From Escherichia coli (lineage in GTDB: Bacteria; Pseudomonadota; Gammaproteobacteria; Enterobacterales; Enterobacteriaceae), in assembly GCF_002854065.1 (NCBI RefSeq), contig NZ_CP024147.1: a stretch of 64,000 nt of DNA; one strand, given 5' to 3'. The position numbers were made by a program. This document shows positions 24,588 through 30,500 of this stretch, in pieces (position 1 is the stretch's first letter; every line of letters begins with the position of its first letter).

Positions 24588-27500
24588 TCACAATTTCACA
24601 CAACATACGAGCCGGACGCATAAAGTGTAAAGCCTGGCTTGCCTAATGAGTGAGCTGACTCACATTAATTGTGTTGCGCTCACTGCCCGCTTTCGAGTCG
24701 GGAAATTTGTCGCGCCAGCTGCATTAAAGAATCTGCCAACGCGCGGGGAGAAGCGGTTTGCGTATTGGGCGGAAGGGTGGTTTTTCTTTTCACCAGTGAG
24801 ACGGGCAAAAGCTGATTGCCCTTCACCGCCTGGCCCTGAGAGAGTTGCAGCAAGCGGTCCACGCTGGTTTGCCCCAGCAGGCGAAAATCCTGTTTGATGG
24901 TGGTTAACGGCGGGATATAACACGAGCTGTCTTCGGTATCGTCGTATCCCACTACCGAGATATCCGCACCAACGCGCAGCCCGGACTCGGTAATGGCGCG
25001 CATTGCGCCCAGCGCCATCTGATCGTTGGCAACCAGCATCGCAGTGGGAACGATGCCCTCATTTAGCATTTGCATGGTTTGTTGAAAACCGGACATGGCA
25101 CTCCAGTCGCCCTCCCGTTCCGCTATCGGCTGAATTTGATTGCGAGTGAGATATTTATGCCAGCCCGCCAGACGCAGACGCGCCGAGACAGAACTTAATG
25201 GGCCCGCTAACAGCGCGATTTGCTGGTGACCCAATGCGACCAGATGCTCCACGCCAAGTCGCGTACCGTCTTCATGGGAGAAAATAATACTGTTGATGGG
25301 AGTCTGGTCAGAGACATCAAGAAATAACGCCGGAACATTAGCGCAGGCAGCTTCCACAGCAATGGCATCCTGGTCATCCAGCGGATAGTTAATGATCAGC
25401 CCACTGACGCGTTGCGCGAGAAGATTGTGCACCGCCGCTTTACAGGCTTCGACGCCGCTTCGTTCTACCATCGACACCACCACGCTGGCACCCAGTTGAT
25501 CGGCGCGAGATTTAATCGCCGCGACAATTTGCGACGGCGCGTGCAGGGCCAGACTGGAGGTGGCAACGCCAATCAGCAACGACTGTTTCCCCGCCAGTTG
25601 TTGTGCCACGCGGTTGGGAATGTAATTCAGCTCCGCCATCGCCGCTTCCACTTTTTCCCGCGTTTTCGCAGAAACGTGGCTGGCCTGATTCACCACGCGG
25701 GAAACGGTCTGATAAGAGACACCGGCATACTCTGCGACATCGTATAGCGTTACTGGTTTCACATTCACCACCCTGAATTGACTCTCTTCCGGGCGCTATC
25801 ATGCCATACCGCGAAAGGTTTTGCGCCATTCGGCGGGGCTGACGCCGAAGTGAGATTTAAAATGCTGACGCCAGGTCACAGGTGAGAGAAAACCCACCTC
25901 AGCTGCTATCCGCTCAACGGGCAATTGACTGGATCCCAACAGTTCCTGGCTACGGCGTAAGCGTTCAGTAATAAGCCATTCGGCGATACTCGAACCGGTC
26001 GCTTTCATAAAATGGCGAGTTAATGTGCGGCGACTCATCATTACTCGCTGCGCCAGCGAGTCGAGATCATGCTGTTGCGCAATGTTTTGCCGCAGGTAAT
26101 CCAGCAGGAGATTAATGCGTTCATCATGGGTATTTTTCGGCACTGGTTGCTCAATAAACTGCGCCTGACCGCCGGTGCGATATGGCGGTACGACCATCCG
26201 TCGGGCAATATGGTTAGCATAGTCGCTGCCAAAATGTTGCCGAACAATATACAAACATCAATCCAGCGCCGCGGCAGTACCGGCAGAGGTAATAATGCCG
26301 TCATCGTCTACGTACAACGCGTTAATATCCAGATGTGTTTGTGGAAAACGTGCCTGAAATTCACGCTCGAACTCCCAGTGTGTGGCGGCACGCTTATTTT
26401 TCAGTAAACCTGCATAGCCGAGCACAAACGTGCCCAGGCAAAGCCCGACAATCTGTGCGCCGTTATCCCGTGCGGTCGTTAAGGCTTCCAGCAGTTTTTG
26501 TGGCGGTTTTTGTGTAATTGTTCCCCAGTAAGGAATTATCACAATATCCGCCTGGATGACTGCGGTATAGTCATGGGTGGCGGTTACGGAAAACCCATCG
26601 GCAGAGTCCACGTTTCCCGGCTTTTCAGCGCAGATAATTACGTGAAAGTGTTTTTTCTCCGCCATTTTTTCGCTAAATACGATAAACGGTACGGAAAGGT
26701 GAAAAGGACTAAAACCGGCAACGGCGATAATGGCAACAGTTAGCGGGCGCATAACACTCTTTTTCTCCGAATTAGAATGTCAACGTTTCACCATCTTCTG
26801 GTACGTTCACAAATTCGATAATTTGATTATCTCTGGCGTATTCCTTGAGCGCATCACGCGTCAGCAAACAGTGGTTTACGGCCTCCATATGTGTCGCGAC
26901 AATTTGCGCTTCTGGCAGGGTAAAATGTGTTTTGAGAATATCTTCTGCTCCCATAATTATCGCGCCATGCCCCAGAACATGCGCAAATCCGGCATTCAAC
27001 ACAACCACTTCTGGTTGGAAAGTTAGCATTGTAACCTCGACGTCGTCACGCCAGAGGGTATCGCCAGCCAGATAGAGCGTTTTCTCTGTCGGGTGCTGGA
27101 AAACAACGCCGCAGGCTGCGCCTAAACGCTTCGCCATCGCCGGGTCGGCATAGGTGCGATCGGAGCCGTGCTGCCCTGTCGTTTTATGCAGAGTAATATC
27201 GCCAAATTTAGTCTCATCGGTAAGTACGGTAAGATGTGTAAATCCTTGTTTATGCAGTGATTCAGCATCTTGCTCATTTTGCACATAAATCAGTTTATCT
27301 TTAGGGACGACGCGGGAGGCTGTTTCGTCCCAGTGATCTTCATGTAAATGAGTCACGATTAGGGCGTCAACGTTGAGTAACGTTGTTAAATCGCACGGTA
27401 ATTCTACCGTTGGATTGCGGATTTCTGCGCGTGCCGTTCCGGCAAAACCCGGATAACTTCCTTTAGGCGCGAGTAACGGGTCGATAAGAAATGTTTTGCC

Positions 27501-30500
27501 AGCGTATTGGATAATTTGGGTGGCATTACGAATTTGCGTAATTTTCATGATTTGCTCCACATCACAGTATTGATGTCATTAGCGTAGCGTGCAGCCCGTA
27601 CTGTGCATGTGGGCAAATGGGCGAATAACGATGAGAATGGGCCAAATTACACATTGGCGTAACTAGCGTAAATGCACGCCGCTTCGCCGTCCGGCCACCA
27701 GAATAGCCTGCGATTCAACCCCTTCTTCGATCTGTTTTGCTACCCGTTGTAGTGCCGGAAGATGCTTTTCCGCTGCCTGTTCGATGGTCATTGCGCTCGC
27801 CATATACACCAGATTCAAACAGCCAATCACCCGTTGTTCACTGCGCAGCGGTACGGCGATAGAGGCGATCTTCTCCTCCTGATCCCAGCCGCGGTAGTTC
27901 TGTCCGTAACCCTCTTTGCGCGCGCGCGCCAGAATGGCTTGCAGCTTTAACGGTTCTCGTGCCAGTTGATAGTCATCACCGGGGCGGGAGGCTAACATTT
28001 CGATTAATTCCTTGCGTTCTTGTTCCGGGCAAAAGGCCAGCCAGGTCAGACCCGAGGCGGTTTTCAGAAGCGGCAAACGTCGCCCGACCATTGCCCGGTG
28101 AAAGGATAAGCGGCTGAAACGGTGGGTGGTTTCGCGTACCACCATTGCATCAACATCCAGCGTGGACACATCTGTCGGCCATACCACTTCGCGCAACAGA
28201 TCGCCCAGCAGTGGGGCCGCCAGTGCAGAAATCCACTGTTCGTCACGAAATCCTTCGCTTAATTGCCGCACTTTGATGGTCAGACGAAAACTATCATCGG
28301 AGGGACTACGCCGGACATATCCCTCTTCCTGCAGCGTCTCCAGCAGTCGCCGCACAGTGGTGCGATGCAGGCCGCTGAGTTCCGCCAGCAGCCCGACGCT
28401 GGCACCGCCGTCAAGTTTATTTAACATATTTAATAACATTAGACCGCGGGTTAAGCCGCGCACGGTTTTGTATTCCGTCTGCTCATTGTTCTGCATATTA
28501 ATTGACATTTCTATAGTTAAAACAACGTTGTGCACCTGGTGCACATTCGGGCATGTTTTGATTGTAGCCGAAAACACCCTTCCTATACTGAGCGCACAAT
28601 AAAAAATCATTTACATGTTTTTAACAAAATAAGTTGCGCCGTACTGTGCGCGCAACGGCATTTTGTCCGAGTCGTGAGGTACTGAAATGGCAATACAACA
28701 CCCTGACATCCAGCCTGCTGTTAACCATAGCGTTCAGGTGGCGATCGCTGGTGCCGGTCCGGTCGGGCTGATGATGGCGAACTATCTCGGCCAGATGGGC
28801 ATTGACGTGCTGGTGGTGGAGAAACTCGATAAGTTGATCGACTACCCGCGTGCGATTGGTATTGATGACGAGGCGCTGCGCACCATGCAGTCGGTTGGCC
28901 TGGTCGATAATGTTCTGCCGCACACTACACCGTGGCACGCGATGCGTTTTCTCACCCCGAAGGGCCGCTGTTTTGCTGATATTCAGCCAATGACCGATGA
29001 ATTTGGCTGGCCGCGCCGTAACGCCTTTATTCAGCCGCAGGTCGATGCGGTGATGCTGGAAGGGGTGTCGCGTTTTCCGAATGTGCGCTGCTTGTTTTCC
29101 CGCGAGCTGGAGGCCTTCAGTCAGCAAGATGACGAAGTGACCTTGCACCTGAAAACGGCAGAAGGGCAGCGGGAAATAGTCAAAGCCCAGTGGCTGGTGG
29201 CCTGTGATGGTGGGGCAAGTTTTGTCCGTCGCACCCTGAATGTGCCGTTTGAAGGTAAAACTGCACCAAATCAGTGGATTGTGGTAGATATCGCCAACGA
29301 TCCGTTAAGTACGCCGCATATCTATTTGTGTTGCGATCCGGTGCGCCCGTATGTTTCTGCCGCGCTGCCTCATGCGGTACGTCGCTTTGAATTTATGGTG
29401 ATGCCGGGAGAAACCGAAGAACAGCTGCGTGAGCCGCAAAATATGCGCAAGCTGTTAAGCAAAGTGCTGCCTAATCCGGACAATGTTGAATTGATTCGCC
29501 AGCGTGTCTACACCCACAACGCGCGACTGGCGCAACGTTTCCGTATTGATCGCGTACTGCTGGCGGGCGATGCCGCGCACATCATGCCGGTATGGCAGGG
29601 GCAGGGCTATAACAGTGGCATGCGCGACGCCTTTAACCTCGCATGGAAACTGGCGTTGGTTATCCAGGGGAAAGCCCGCGATGCGCTGCTCGATACCTAT
29701 CAACAAGAACGTCGCGATCACGCCAAAGCGATGATTGACCTGTCCGTGACGGCGGGCAACGTGCTGGCTCCGCCGAAACGCTGGCAGGGTACGTTACGTG
29801 ACGGCGTTTCCTGGCTGCTGAATTATCTGCCGCCAGTAAAACGCTACTTCCTCGAAATGCGCTTCAAGCCGATGCCGCAATATTACGGCGGTGCGCTGGT
29901 GCGTGAGGGCGAAGCGAAGCACTCTCCGGTCGGCAAGATGTTTATTCAGCCGAAAGTCACGCTGGAAAACGGCGACGTGACGCTGCTCGATAACGCGATC
30001 GGCGCGAACTTCGCGGTAATTGGCTGGGGATGCAATCTACTGTGGGGGATGAGCGACGAGCAAATCCAGCAGTGGCGCGCGTTGGGCACACGCTTCATTC
30101 AGGTGGTGCCGGAAGTGCAAATTCATACCGCACAGGATAACCACGACGGCGTACTACGCGTGGGGGATACGCAAGGTCGCCTGCGTAGCTGGTTCGCGCA
30201 ACACAATGCTTCGCTGGTGGTGATGCGCCCGGATCGCTTTGTTGCCGCCACCGCCATTCCGCAAACCCTGGGCAAGACCCTGAATAAACTGGCGTCGGTG
30301 ATGACGCTGACCCGCCCTGATGCCGACGTTTCTGTCGAAAAGGTAGCCTGATATGCACGCTTATCTTCACTGTCTTTCCCACTCGCCGCTGGTGGGGTAT
30401 GTCGACCCGGCGCAAGAGGTGCTCGATGAGGTCGATGGCGTGATTGCCAGCGCCCGCGAGCGTATTGCGGCTTTCTCCCCTGAACTGGTGGTGCTGTTTG

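What the first reader, a model, noticed from the sequence alone, without database searches (positions are those of the whole stretch)
25799..27560. Two-gene module (MBL-fold hydrolase + GlxA-type AraC regulator) between mhpR and lacI, absent from K-12
In K-12, lacI and mhpR are adjacent as I recall. Here about 1.8 kb separates them and encodes a 262-aa metallo-beta-lactamase-fold hydrolase (HxHxDH motif) followed 20 bp later, on the same strand, by a GlxA-family regulator (DJ-1/PfpI sensor domain + AraC HTH). A hydrolase paired with a ligand-sensing AraC regulator looks like a small catabolic or detoxification unit of unknown substrate. Its position between the mhp aromatic-acid operon and lac suggests K-12 lost it by deletion.
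Basis: partly seen in the sequence, partly recalled or inferred. Interest (0 to 1): 0.6.

Follow-up and report, generated by a model that had tools for sequence, protein, structure and literature searches.

The report
O island 19: isothiocyanate hydrolase module
The two genes between lacI and mhpR are the already described O island 19 of E. coli O157:H7 (virulence regulator OvrA plus an "unknown" gene); the unknown gene is a close relative of bacterial isothiocyanate (mustard-oil) hydrolases, and in this strain the regulator is broken by a stop codon.

Summary
Between mhpR and lacI lie an intact 258-aa metallo-beta-lactamase-fold hydrolase gene (26772-27548, minus strand) and a DJ-1/PfpI + AraC regulator gene (25799-26752). 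That allele is in 1 of 435 carrier genomes.

The module is O island 19 of EHEC O157:H7 EDL933 (z0443 + z0442/ovrA). OvrA is a published activator of LEE1/ler, and RefSeq already names it. 435 of 5426 complete E. coli genomes carry the module. K-12 lacks it but keeps the last 34 nt of ovrA, so K-12 lost it by deletion.

New here:
- z0443, "unknown" in the two EHEC reviews read, is full-length homologous to the crystallised isothiocyanate hydrolase SaxA (6BRM, E 6e-88, 54% identity), with all metal ligands present.
- In 76 of 83 loci from more than 25 genera, a SaxA homolog is followed by an OvrA homolog.
- A conserved direct-repeat element precedes the hydrolase gene in 75 of 84 loci.

The most likely reading is an isothiocyanate detoxification enzyme with its own activator, later co-opted for LEE control. 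Activity and regulation are inferred, not shown. Verdict: an already known module; modest interest.

The parts
26772..27548 (-). saxA-like MBL-fold hydrolase gene, ortholog of EDL933 z0443; 258 aa, intact
   Evidence: ORF. PGAP 'MBL fold metallo-hydrolase' in the identical record. Three substitutions versus EDL933 WP_000705454.1, none at a metal ligand. PDB 6BRM SaxA E 5.7e-88 over the full length, 54% identity; 3RPC E 5e-72. Pfam Lactamase_B_2. Ligands D23, H67, H69, D71, H72, H127, D163 and H220 are conserved in 32 family members.
25799..26752 (-). ovrA (z0442 ortholog), a GlxA/FtrA-type DJ-1/PfpI + AraC-HTH regulator gene; here a pseudogene
   Evidence: The 318-codon frame has one internal stop. 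Otherwise it differs from EDL933 OvrA WP_001247696.1 only by R35H. The intact allele hits Pfam DJ-1_PfpI + HTH_18. The best NCBIfam hit is FtrA, 324 bits, below the 425 cutoff. PGAP note: 'internal stop'.
26258..26260 (-). in-frame TGA replacing the invariant Cys165 codon (TGC)
   Evidence: A 41-mer with this allele matches 1 of 5426 genomes; the TGC allele matches 434. C165 is invariant in 78 OvrA homologs. There is no SECIS-like structure downstream (z = 0.2).
27606..27645 (-). conserved upstream element (candidate OvrA operator): TTGGCCCATTCTCATCG TTAT TCGCCCATTTGCCCACATG; starts 97 nt before the ATG
   Evidence: It aligns across E. coli, Citrobacter, Enterobacter, Klebsiella and Kluyvera although the flanks differ. 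The pattern TTGRCCYRATNNCATC occurs in 75 of 84 loci within 250 nt upstream, median 99 nt from the ATG, versus 29 matches in 1.7 Mb elsewhere. The consensus shows TGnCC repeated with a 21-bp period. That OvrA binds here is an inference.
25798..25826 (-). lacI promoter hexamers embedded in the ovrA 3' end (-35 GCGCAA at 25821-25826; -10 CATGAT at 25798-25803, overlapping the ovrA stop codon)
   Evidence: The sequence is identical to the MG1655 lacI upstream region. The hexamer assignment comes from my recollection of Calos 1978. It is consistent with the positions of the engineered PvuI and NheI sites described in PMC7049694.
25799..25832 (-). the part of ovrA (codons for EWRKTFRGMA + stop) that survives in K-12 as the lacI-mhpR spacer
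   Evidence: Direct comparison of the MG1655 spacer with the window.
25826..25835 (.). CCATTCGGCG, the left copy of the microhomology at the K-12-type deletion junction
   Evidence: Junction comparison of L008, L009, L010 and MG1655 with the window. The right copy is CATTGGCG at 27652-27659.
27652..27659 (.). CATTGGCG, the right copy of the microhomology, just past the mhpR stop (27663-27665)
24680..25762 (-). lacI (flank)
27663..28496 (-). mhpR (flank)

Best explanation
The segment is O island 19 (z0443 + z0442/ovrA of EHEC O157:H7), here in a non-O157 strain identical to CUWW06.

Shown:
- Its identity with O island 19.
- Its presence in 8% of complete E. coli genomes.
- Its ancestral position between mhpR and lacI, shared with Citrobacter.
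- Its loss from K-12 by a roughly 1.83-kb deletion that left the ovrA 3' end.
- The private nonsense mutation C165* in ovrA in this window.

Inferred:
- z0443 is a dizinc isothiocyanate hydrolase of the SaxA family, converting R-N=C=S + H2O to R-NH2 + COS and so detoxifying mustard-oil compounds from crucifers.
- OvrA is its cognate AraC-type activator. It would bind as a dimer to the conserved 21-bp-period direct repeat that starts 97 nt upstream of the hydrolase ATG and drive a hydrolase-ovrA operon.
- The DJ-1/PfpI sensor domain has invariant C105, C165 and C166 and may sense the electrophile.
- The published LEE1/ler activation by OvrA would then be a secondary, co-opted output.
- In this strain the truncated OvrA lacks its DNA-binding domain. 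The hydrolase would be left with basal expression, or the RpoS-dependent expression that was measured only in EDL933.
For: Identity:
- 98.4-98.6% nt identity to O157:H7 strains including EDL933, with the same flanks.
- RefSeq names the gene 'OI-19-encoded virulence regulator OvrA' in newer records.
- Reviews describe OI-19 as 1834 bp, z0442 = ovrA, z0443 unknown.

Enzyme:
- Full-length hit to crystallised SaxA 6BRM (E 5.7e-88, 54% identity) and to 3RPC (46%). Those two are 44% identical to each other, so the E. coli protein lies within the family's span.
- All MBL metal ligands are conserved.
- The SaxA reaction and its wide distribution in Enterobacterales are described in PMC7036374.

Coupling:
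- 76 of 83 SaxA-homolog loci (Citrobacter, Enterobacter, Klebsiella, Yersinia, Photorhabdus, Pectobacterium, Pantoea, Erwinia, Serratia, Vibrio, Marinomonas and others) have an OvrA homolog (51-80% identity) downstream on the same strand. In 73 the gap is at most 161 nt. The outer flanks differ.
- The closest relatives of 6BRM (86-89% identity) have the regulator too.
- A plasmid paralog pair (64% and 58% identity) exists.
- A distant Tat-signal SaxA homolog has a divergent DJ-1/AraC regulator.

Operator.

Deletion direction.

Stop allele.

Expression: Z0443 is 10-fold RpoS-dependent in EDL933.
Against: - No enzymatic or genetic data for the E. coli protein were found. The papers that define SaxA biochemistry (AEM 2018, AEM 2016, Science 2011) could not be read here.
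- 54% identity does not prove substrate identity.
- The only experimentally reported OvrA site (LEE1, GACATTTAATGATAATG) does not resemble the conserved upstream element. An 8/11 partial match, judged by eye, is at chance level by my rough estimate.
- No sigma-70-like promoter was found on the minus strand by the simple scan.
- The upstream pattern was derived from the same loci in which it was then counted.
- In P. viridiflava, saxC was not induced by isothiocyanate.
- z0443 deletion had no virulence phenotype.
Confidence: 0.7

Rival explanations
1. The module is a horizontally acquired island inserted into the lacI-mhpR spacer of the O157 lineage (the usual reading of 'O island'), and K-12 shows the ancestral state.
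For: It is listed among the O islands, defined as segments absent from K-12. Only 8% of complete E. coli genomes carry it. Paralogous pairs are plasmid-borne. Its GC content is slightly lower than the flanks, 0.47-0.52 versus 0.54-0.59.
Against: MG1655 retains 34 nt that are the in-frame 3' end of ovrA (EWRKTFRGMA + stop). W309, R310 and F313 within it are conserved in at least 97% of 78 homologs. B2 strains retain 99 nt and lost the mhp genes as well, which is a second, independent deletion. Several Citrobacter species have mhpR-hydrolase-regulator-lacI with divergence similar to the flanks: 76-80% versus lacI 78-84% and mhpR 89-92%. The two genes fill the segment, leaving no room for an integrase or IS element. 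Repeats and tRNA genes were not searched for.
Confidence: 0.05
2. The hydrolase acts on a substrate other than isothiocyanates (a lactone, thioester, phosphodiester or other electrophile), and the SaxA resemblance reflects only a shared fold subfamily.
For: Only sequence evidence is available. NCBIfam has no specific model, and its best hit is a generic 'metal-dependent hydrolase' below cutoff. JGI labels relatives 'UlaG-like'. The family extends to Firmicutes such as Streptococcus suis and Halobacillus, which are not obviously plant-associated. E. coli is mainly a gut organism.
Against: Full-length 54% identity to a crystallised isothiocyanate hydrolase. By my recollection of the AEM 2018 abstract, seven ITCases as divergent as 42% all hydrolysed isothiocyanates; PMC7036374 likewise says activity is preserved in all five clusters. 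Gut bacteria do meet dietary isothiocyanates.
Confidence: 0.2
3. OvrA is primarily a virulence regulator of LEE and does not control the adjacent hydrolase; the adjacency is historical.
For: Published EMSA, ChIP and footprinting place OvrA on LEE1, and ovrA deletion lowers adherence and colonisation while z0443 deletion does not.
Against: The pair is conserved in many genera that are not known to carry LEE, including Pantoea, Vibrio and Marinomonas, together with a conserved upstream direct repeat. LEE presence was not tested in any locus. Carriers include isolates from horse, chicken, pig and wastewater, as well as this 4.65-Mb strain.
Confidence: 0.15
4. The internal stop is a sequencing error or is read through (for example as selenocysteine at a conserved Cys), so the regulator is functional in this strain.
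For: The allele is unique to one assembly. It is a single base change at an invariant Cys codon, and Cys-to-Sec at UGA is a known pattern.
Against: There is no stable stem-loop downstream (z = 0.2). The 434 other alleles carry TGC with the same downstream sequence, so no SECIS has evolved there. A substitution is not the typical long-read error. PGAP calls it a pseudogene.
Confidence: 0.1

Closest known systems
O island 19 of EHEC O157:H7 EDL933 (z0442 = ovrA, z0443); Liu B et al. 2020 J Infect Dis 221:820, as summarised in PMC8565820 and PMC10877973
   Same: Same locus between lacI and mhpR, same two genes, 98.4-98.6% nt identity. The hydrolase differs at 3 residues and the regulator at 1 residue plus the stop.
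   Different: ovrA carries a private C165* nonsense mutation here. The host is a non-O157 wastewater isolate with a 4.65-Mb genome. Whether it has LEE was not tested.
SaxA isothiocyanate hydrolases (PDB 6BRM, named by its depositors; Pseudomonas syringae SaxA and insect-gut plasmid SaxA from the literature)
   Same: Same length, MBL fold and metal ligands, with end-to-end alignment at 54% identity to 6BRM. The closest relatives of 6BRM also have an adjacent DJ-1/PfpI-AraC regulator.
   Different: Activity is untested for the E. coli protein. It has no signal peptide, unlike the Tat-signal homolog in L095. It is chromosomal, in an enteric rather than a plant-pathogen context.
The sax gene set of Pseudomonas: saxA with regulator saxC and saxB (PMC12903958). 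The saxC-saxA-saxB gene order and the isochorismatase nature of SaxB are my recollection of Fan et al. 2011.
   Same: An enzyme plus a dedicated transcription factor. Locus L095 shows a divergent DJ-1/PfpI-AraC regulator, a SaxA homolog and an isochorismatase.
   Different: The L095 regulator is only 31% identical to OvrA and is divergently oriented. E. coli has no saxB-like gene. I could not confirm that L095 is a Pseudomonas locus, nor obtain the SaxC sequence.
GATase1-like AraC regulators (GlxA/FtrA/GbdR type)
   Same: DJ-1/PfpI sensor + AraC HTH. Best NCBIfam hits are FtrA (324 bits) and GbdR (125 bits). The nucleophile-elbow Cys is conserved.
   Different: Below the curated equivalog cutoffs, so it is neither FtrA nor GbdR. 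The ligand is unknown.

Membership tests
O island 19 (z0442/z0443) of EHEC O157:H7 | Located between lacI and mhpR; about 1.83 kb absent from K-12 | tested here: met
   The published size of 1834 bp is.
O island 19 (z0442/z0443) of EHEC O157:H7 | Encodes OvrA and Z0443 proteins (WP_001247696.1, WP_000705454.1) | tested here: met
   Hydrolase: 3 substitutions. Regulator: R35H plus C165*.
O island 19 (z0442/z0443) of EHEC O157:H7 | Intact, functional ovrA | tested here: not met
   In-frame TGA at codon 165 removes the HTH domain.
SaxA isothiocyanate hydrolase family | MBL fold with HxHxDH and the distal His/Asp/His metal ligands | tested here: met
   H67, H69, D71, H72, H127, D163 and H220 are invariant or nearly invariant in 32 sequences. 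Pfam PF12706.
SaxA isothiocyanate hydrolase family | Full-length homology to an experimentally characterised SaxA | tested here: met
   6BRM residues 1-259 versus query 1-258, E 5.7e-88; 54% identity.
SaxA isothiocyanate hydrolase family | Hydrolysis of isothiocyanates to amine + carbonyl sulfide | not testable with these tools
   Needs an enzyme assay. The reaction is described in PMC7036374.
SaxA isothiocyanate hydrolase family | Hydrophobic active-site pocket and flexible cap (recalled from the AEM 2018 abstract) | not tested
   The paper is not held. No structure was predicted.
GlxA/FtrA-type (DJ-1/PfpI + AraC HTH) regulators | N-terminal DJ-1/PfpI domain and C-terminal tandem AraC HTH | tested here: met
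   For the intact O157 allele: PF01965 residues 6-171 and PF12833 residues 233-311. In this window the two domains are separated by the stop.
GlxA/FtrA-type (DJ-1/PfpI + AraC HTH) regulators | Scores above the curated FtrA equivalog cutoff | tested here: not met
   323.9 bits versus a cutoff of 425.
Mobile genomic island | Integrase or IS genes, or strongly atypical composition (flanking repeats and a tRNA insertion site were not searched for) | tested here: not met
   Only two ORFs fill the segment. GC is 0.47-0.52. Synteny is shared with Citrobacter.
Selenoprotein (UGA = Sec) | SECIS stem-loop just downstream of the UGA | tested here: not met
   The fold is no better than shuffles, z = 0.2. 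The allele is unique.

The most novel reading that the evidence does not exclude
OI-19 may be an isothiocyanate sensing and detoxification cassette. OvrA would be activated when dietary or plant isothiocyanates modify its invariant cysteines (C105, C165, C166), switching on the hydrolase. In LEE-positive E. coli the same signal would feed into ler. That would couple exposure to crucifer-derived mustard oils in cattle feed, on produce or in the human diet to attaching-and-effacing virulence.

A corollary follows directly from the sequence: the classical lacI promoter of K-12 is a relic of the ovrA 3' coding end.
Probability: 0.25. Interest if true: 0.55.

Novelty: already known. Interest (0 to 1): 0.3.

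Why it matters
The module itself is catalogued as OI-19, with OvrA characterised, so the finding is not a discovery. What could matter is that two literatures seem unconnected. The two EHEC reviews I read list z0443 as 'unknown function'. The plant-pathogen and insect-gut literature describes close homologs as isothiocyanate hydrolases. No paper in the held library joined the two.

If Z0443 degrades isothiocyanates under OvrA control, O157:H7 and about 8% of E. coli would have a specific defence against mustard-oil compounds. Those compounds are used as food antimicrobials and occur in crucifer feed and produce. A known LEE regulator would also gain a candidate natural signal.

The relic analysis further shows that an 'O island' can be ancestral DNA lost from K-12, and that the textbook lacI promoter sits inside the tail of a lost gene.

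Tried and rejected
1. The primary SaxA papers (AEM 2018, AEM 2016) are not held under their DOI or PMC ids. Active-site details and the list of tested enzymes therefore rest on my recollection.
2. I looked for papers linking SaxA with E. coli O157, z0443 or ECs0399/0400, and for isothiocyanate transcriptomics. Nothing relevant turned up except RpoS dependence of Z0443.
3. The published OvrA LEE1 motif was searched in the window. The only matches are two 3-mismatch sites far from the module (4050 and 24164), and none lies upstream of the hydrolase.
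4. The simple promoter/terminator scan found nothing on the minus strand in the module.
5. A genome-contig scan with a 32-sequence alignment failed for lack of a conserved stretch. It was redone with 8 closer sequences.
6. I tried to reach P. syringae SaxA/SaxC through representative clusters. The clusters named were Firmicutes, and P0121 lies on a 1.8-kb contig. P0122 gave a saxCAB-like locus of unknown organism.
7. The selenocysteine reading of the TGA was rejected.
8. Multiple independent K-12-type deletions were rejected. The 61- and 65-nt remnant classes share one junction, with the same 76-nt lacI-mhpR spacing, and differ only by substitutions. The 48-nt class is a further 15-bp loss that looks like lacIq1. 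Only the B2 deletion is clearly separate.
9. The resemblance between the LEE1 site (reverse complement) and half-site 1 is 8 of 11, judged by eye. That is about what chance gives over all offsets, by my rough estimate.

Full report
**What is in the window.**
- All four genes lie on the minus strand in the order mhpR (27663-28496), a hydrolase gene (26772-27548), a regulator gene (25799-26752) and lacI (24680-25762).
- The hydrolase ORF is intact.
- The regulator frame is 318 codons long but has TGA at codon 165 (window 26258-26260). This yields two ORFs of 164 and 151 aa.
- The window is 100% identical here to E. coli CUWW06, a wastewater isolate from Thailand with a 4.65-Mb genome. PGAP flags the regulator there as a pseudogene with an 'internal stop'.

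**Domains.**
- The hydrolase hits Pfam Lactamase_B_2. It has H67-x-H69-x-D71-H72, H127, D163 and H220, all invariant or nearly so across 32 family members.
- The intact allele of the regulator, taken from an O157 strain, has DJ-1_PfpI (residues 6-171) and HTH_18/AraC (233-311).
- Its best NCBIfam hit is FtrA at 324 bits, below the 425-bit cutoff.

**It is a known island.**
- Of 5426 complete E. coli genomes, 435 carry the module, always once and always on the chromosome. Most are O157:H7 or O55:H7 at 98.4% identity, and 77 are at 99% or more.
- Carriers also include O145:H28, ETEC, and animal and water isolates.
- EDL933 has the same two proteins, WP_001247696.1 and WP_000705454.1.
- Newer RefSeq records name the regulator 'OI-19-encoded virulence regulator OvrA'.
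- Two reviews (PMC8565820, PMC10877973) describe OI-19 as a 1834-bp island with z0442 (ovrA) and z0443.
- According to them, OvrA binds a 17-bp site in the LEE1 promoter, activates ler and promotes adherence and colonisation (Liu B et al. 2020). They list z0443 as 'hypothetical, unknown function', and its deletion did not affect virulence.
- Z0443 is 10-fold RpoS-dependent in EDL933 (PMC2907692).

**The stop codon.**
- Compared with O157, the window's ovrA has 16 nucleotide differences. Only two change the protein: R35H and C165* (TGC to TGA).
- A 41-mer centred on the mutant base matches only CUWW06. The wild-type 41-mer matches the other 434 carriers.
- C165 is invariant in 78 OvrA homologs, as are C105 (the GLCLG nucleophile elbow) and C166.
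- The truncated product would lack the DNA-binding domain.
- A selenocysteine reading is not supported. The downstream RNA folds no better than shuffled sequence (z = 0.2), and the allele is private.
- A sequencing error cannot be excluded with these tools.

**K-12 lost the module.**
- MG1655 has lacI and mhpR 76 nt apart.
- Read on the minus strand, that spacer is: the mhpR stop (TGA), then CACCAT, then CGAATGGCGCAAAACCTTTCGCGGTATGGCATGA, then the lacI leader.
- The 34-nt stretch is identical to the end of ovrA (codons EWRKTFRGMA plus the stop).
- Other deletion-type genomes share the same junction and spacing and differ only by substitutions.
- The junction coincides with a microhomology, CCATTCGGCG at 25826-25835 and CATTGGCG at 27652-27659.
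- B2 strains such as Nissle keep 99 nt of ovrA and have lost the hydrolase, mhpR and the mhp operon. That is a separate deletion.
- Several Citrobacter species have mhpR-hydrolase-regulator-lacI in the same order. Their module proteins are 76-80% identical to E. coli's, against 78-84% for lacI and 89-92% for mhpR.
- GC content is unremarkable at 0.47-0.52, and the two genes leave no room for mobility genes.
'O island' here means ancestral DNA missing from K-12.

**What the hydrolase is.**
- A search of PDB sequences gives a full-length match to 6BRM, 'putative metal-dependent isothiocyanate hydrolase SaxA' (E 5.7e-88, 54% identity). It also matches 3RPC (E 5e-72, 46%).
- 6BRM and 3RPC are 44% identical to each other, so the E. 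coli protein lies inside the family's known span.
- PMC7036374 states that SaxA hydrolyses isothiocyanates to the amine and carbonyl sulfide. It also says the gene is widespread in Enterobacterales in five clusters, and that catalysis is preserved in all five.
- I recall, but could not re-read, that the 2018 AEM paper tested seven enzymes and solved two structures sharing 42% identity.
- The family is moderately large: 181 representatives at 50% clustering with E up to 1e-30. It reaches Firmicutes.
- I found no paper in the held library that links z0443 or OI-19 to SaxA.

**The pair is a conserved cassette.**
- A scan of one genome per species returned 80 loci, and I had three more from exact look-ups.
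- In 76 of these 83 loci an OvrA homolog (51-80% identity) lies downstream of the SaxA homolog on the same strand. In 73 the gap is at most 161 nt.
- The genera include Citrobacter, Enterobacter, Klebsiella, Raoultella, Kluyvera, Leclercia, Yersinia, Photorhabdus, Providencia, Pectobacterium, Erwinia, Pantoea, Serratia, Vibrio, Salinivibrio and Marinomonas. The outer flanks are unrelated.
- The loci closest to crystallised SaxA (86-89% identity) have the regulator too.
- A paralogous pair (64% and 58% identity) sits on 128 E. coli plasmids.
- A distant, Tat-signal SaxA homolog has a divergent DJ-1/PfpI-AraC regulator (31% identical to OvrA) and a downstream isochorismatase. This matches my recollection of the Pseudomonas saxC-saxA-saxB layout.
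- Two lineages of the enzyme are thus each paired with this class of regulator.

**A candidate operator.**
- Upstream of the hydrolase gene a 40-nt element (window 27606-27645) is conserved across genera although the upstream genes differ.
- The pattern TTGRCCYRATNNCATC occurs within 250 nt upstream in 75 of 84 loci, at a median of 99 nt from the ATG. Elsewhere it occurs 29 times in 1.7 Mb. The pattern was derived from these same loci, which inflates the contrast.
- The consensus, atTGgCCCgATt.CATCG.t.attG.CC.tt.gcCcac, repeats TGnCC with a 21-bp period. That is the usual geometry for dimeric AraC-family activators.
- I infer that this is the native OvrA site and that the hydrolase and ovrA form an autoregulated operon.
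- The element does not resemble the published AT-rich LEE1 site.

**Side observation.** By my recollection of Calos 1978, the lacI promoter hexamers are -35 GCGCAA and -10 CATGAT. This is consistent with the engineered PvuI and NheI sites described in PMC7049694. Both hexamers lie inside the last codons and the stop of ovrA, at window 25821-25826 and 25798-25803. That would explain why both deletions stop short of this stretch.

**Verdict.** The module is nevertheless catalogued and its regulator characterised, and in this strain the regulator is dead. The added value is a probable function for z0443 and a probable native role for OvrA. Both are inferred and both are testable.

Noticed in passing
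window 25798-25832 (minus strand): The K-12 lacI promoter (-35 GCGCAA, -10 CATGAT, from memory) lies within the last 12 codons and the stop of ovrA. The MG1655 lacI-mhpR spacer is essentially this ovrA relic plus the lacI leader.
   Followed up: partly
L004 (NZ_CP148133.1, FELIX_MS78) 4040-4060: This K-12-like genome lacks a further 15 bp (ATCGAATGGCGCAAA) of the relic. The loss creates TTGACA upstream of CATGAT and looks like the laboratory lacIq1 up-promoter allele.
   Followed up: no
L091 (plasmid NZ_CP048027.1) 4001-6192: A paralogous SaxA-like (64% identity) plus OvrA-like (58% identity) pair, followed by an 'ester cyclase' gene, sits on an IncY plasmid. Similar hits occur on 128 E. coli plasmids and in Salmonella, Cronobacter and Providencia. 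O55:H7 RM12579 carries both the chromosomal and the plasmid copies.
   Followed up: partly
L003 (E. coli Nissle, NZ_CM187577.1) 4028-4200: B2-type genomes keep 99 nt of ovrA and then run directly into yaiL. The hydrolase, mhpR and the whole mhp operon are missing, which is a deletion separate from the K-12 one.
   Followed up: partly
L095 (GCA_030538695.1) 2974-5410: A 62%-GC genome has a twin-arginine-signal SaxA homolog flanked by a divergent DJ-1/PfpI-AraC regulator and a downstream isochorismatase. This resembles the Pseudomonas saxC-saxA-saxB layout as I recall it. The organism was not identified.
   Followed up: partly
window 4050-4066 (+) and 24164-24180 (-): Two 3-mismatch matches to the published OvrA LEE1 site GACATTTAATGATAATG, against 0.14 expected from shuffles. 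The second lies inside lacZ. Probably chance.
   Followed up: no
L007, L040, L047, L048, L050 (Yersinia, Photorhabdus, Buttiauxella, Moellerella, Tenebrionibacter), about 170 nt upstream of the hydrolase gene: These loci lack the standard upstream motif. They share a variant with TTGACCCGATATGCG and a palindromic CCCGATAATCAC...GTTATCGGG, possibly a diverged operator.
   Followed up: no
window 27663-28610: The longest mhpR ORF extends to an ATG at 28610 (315 aa), whereas RefSeq annotates 277 aa (27663-28496). This is only an upstream in-frame extension.
   Followed up: no
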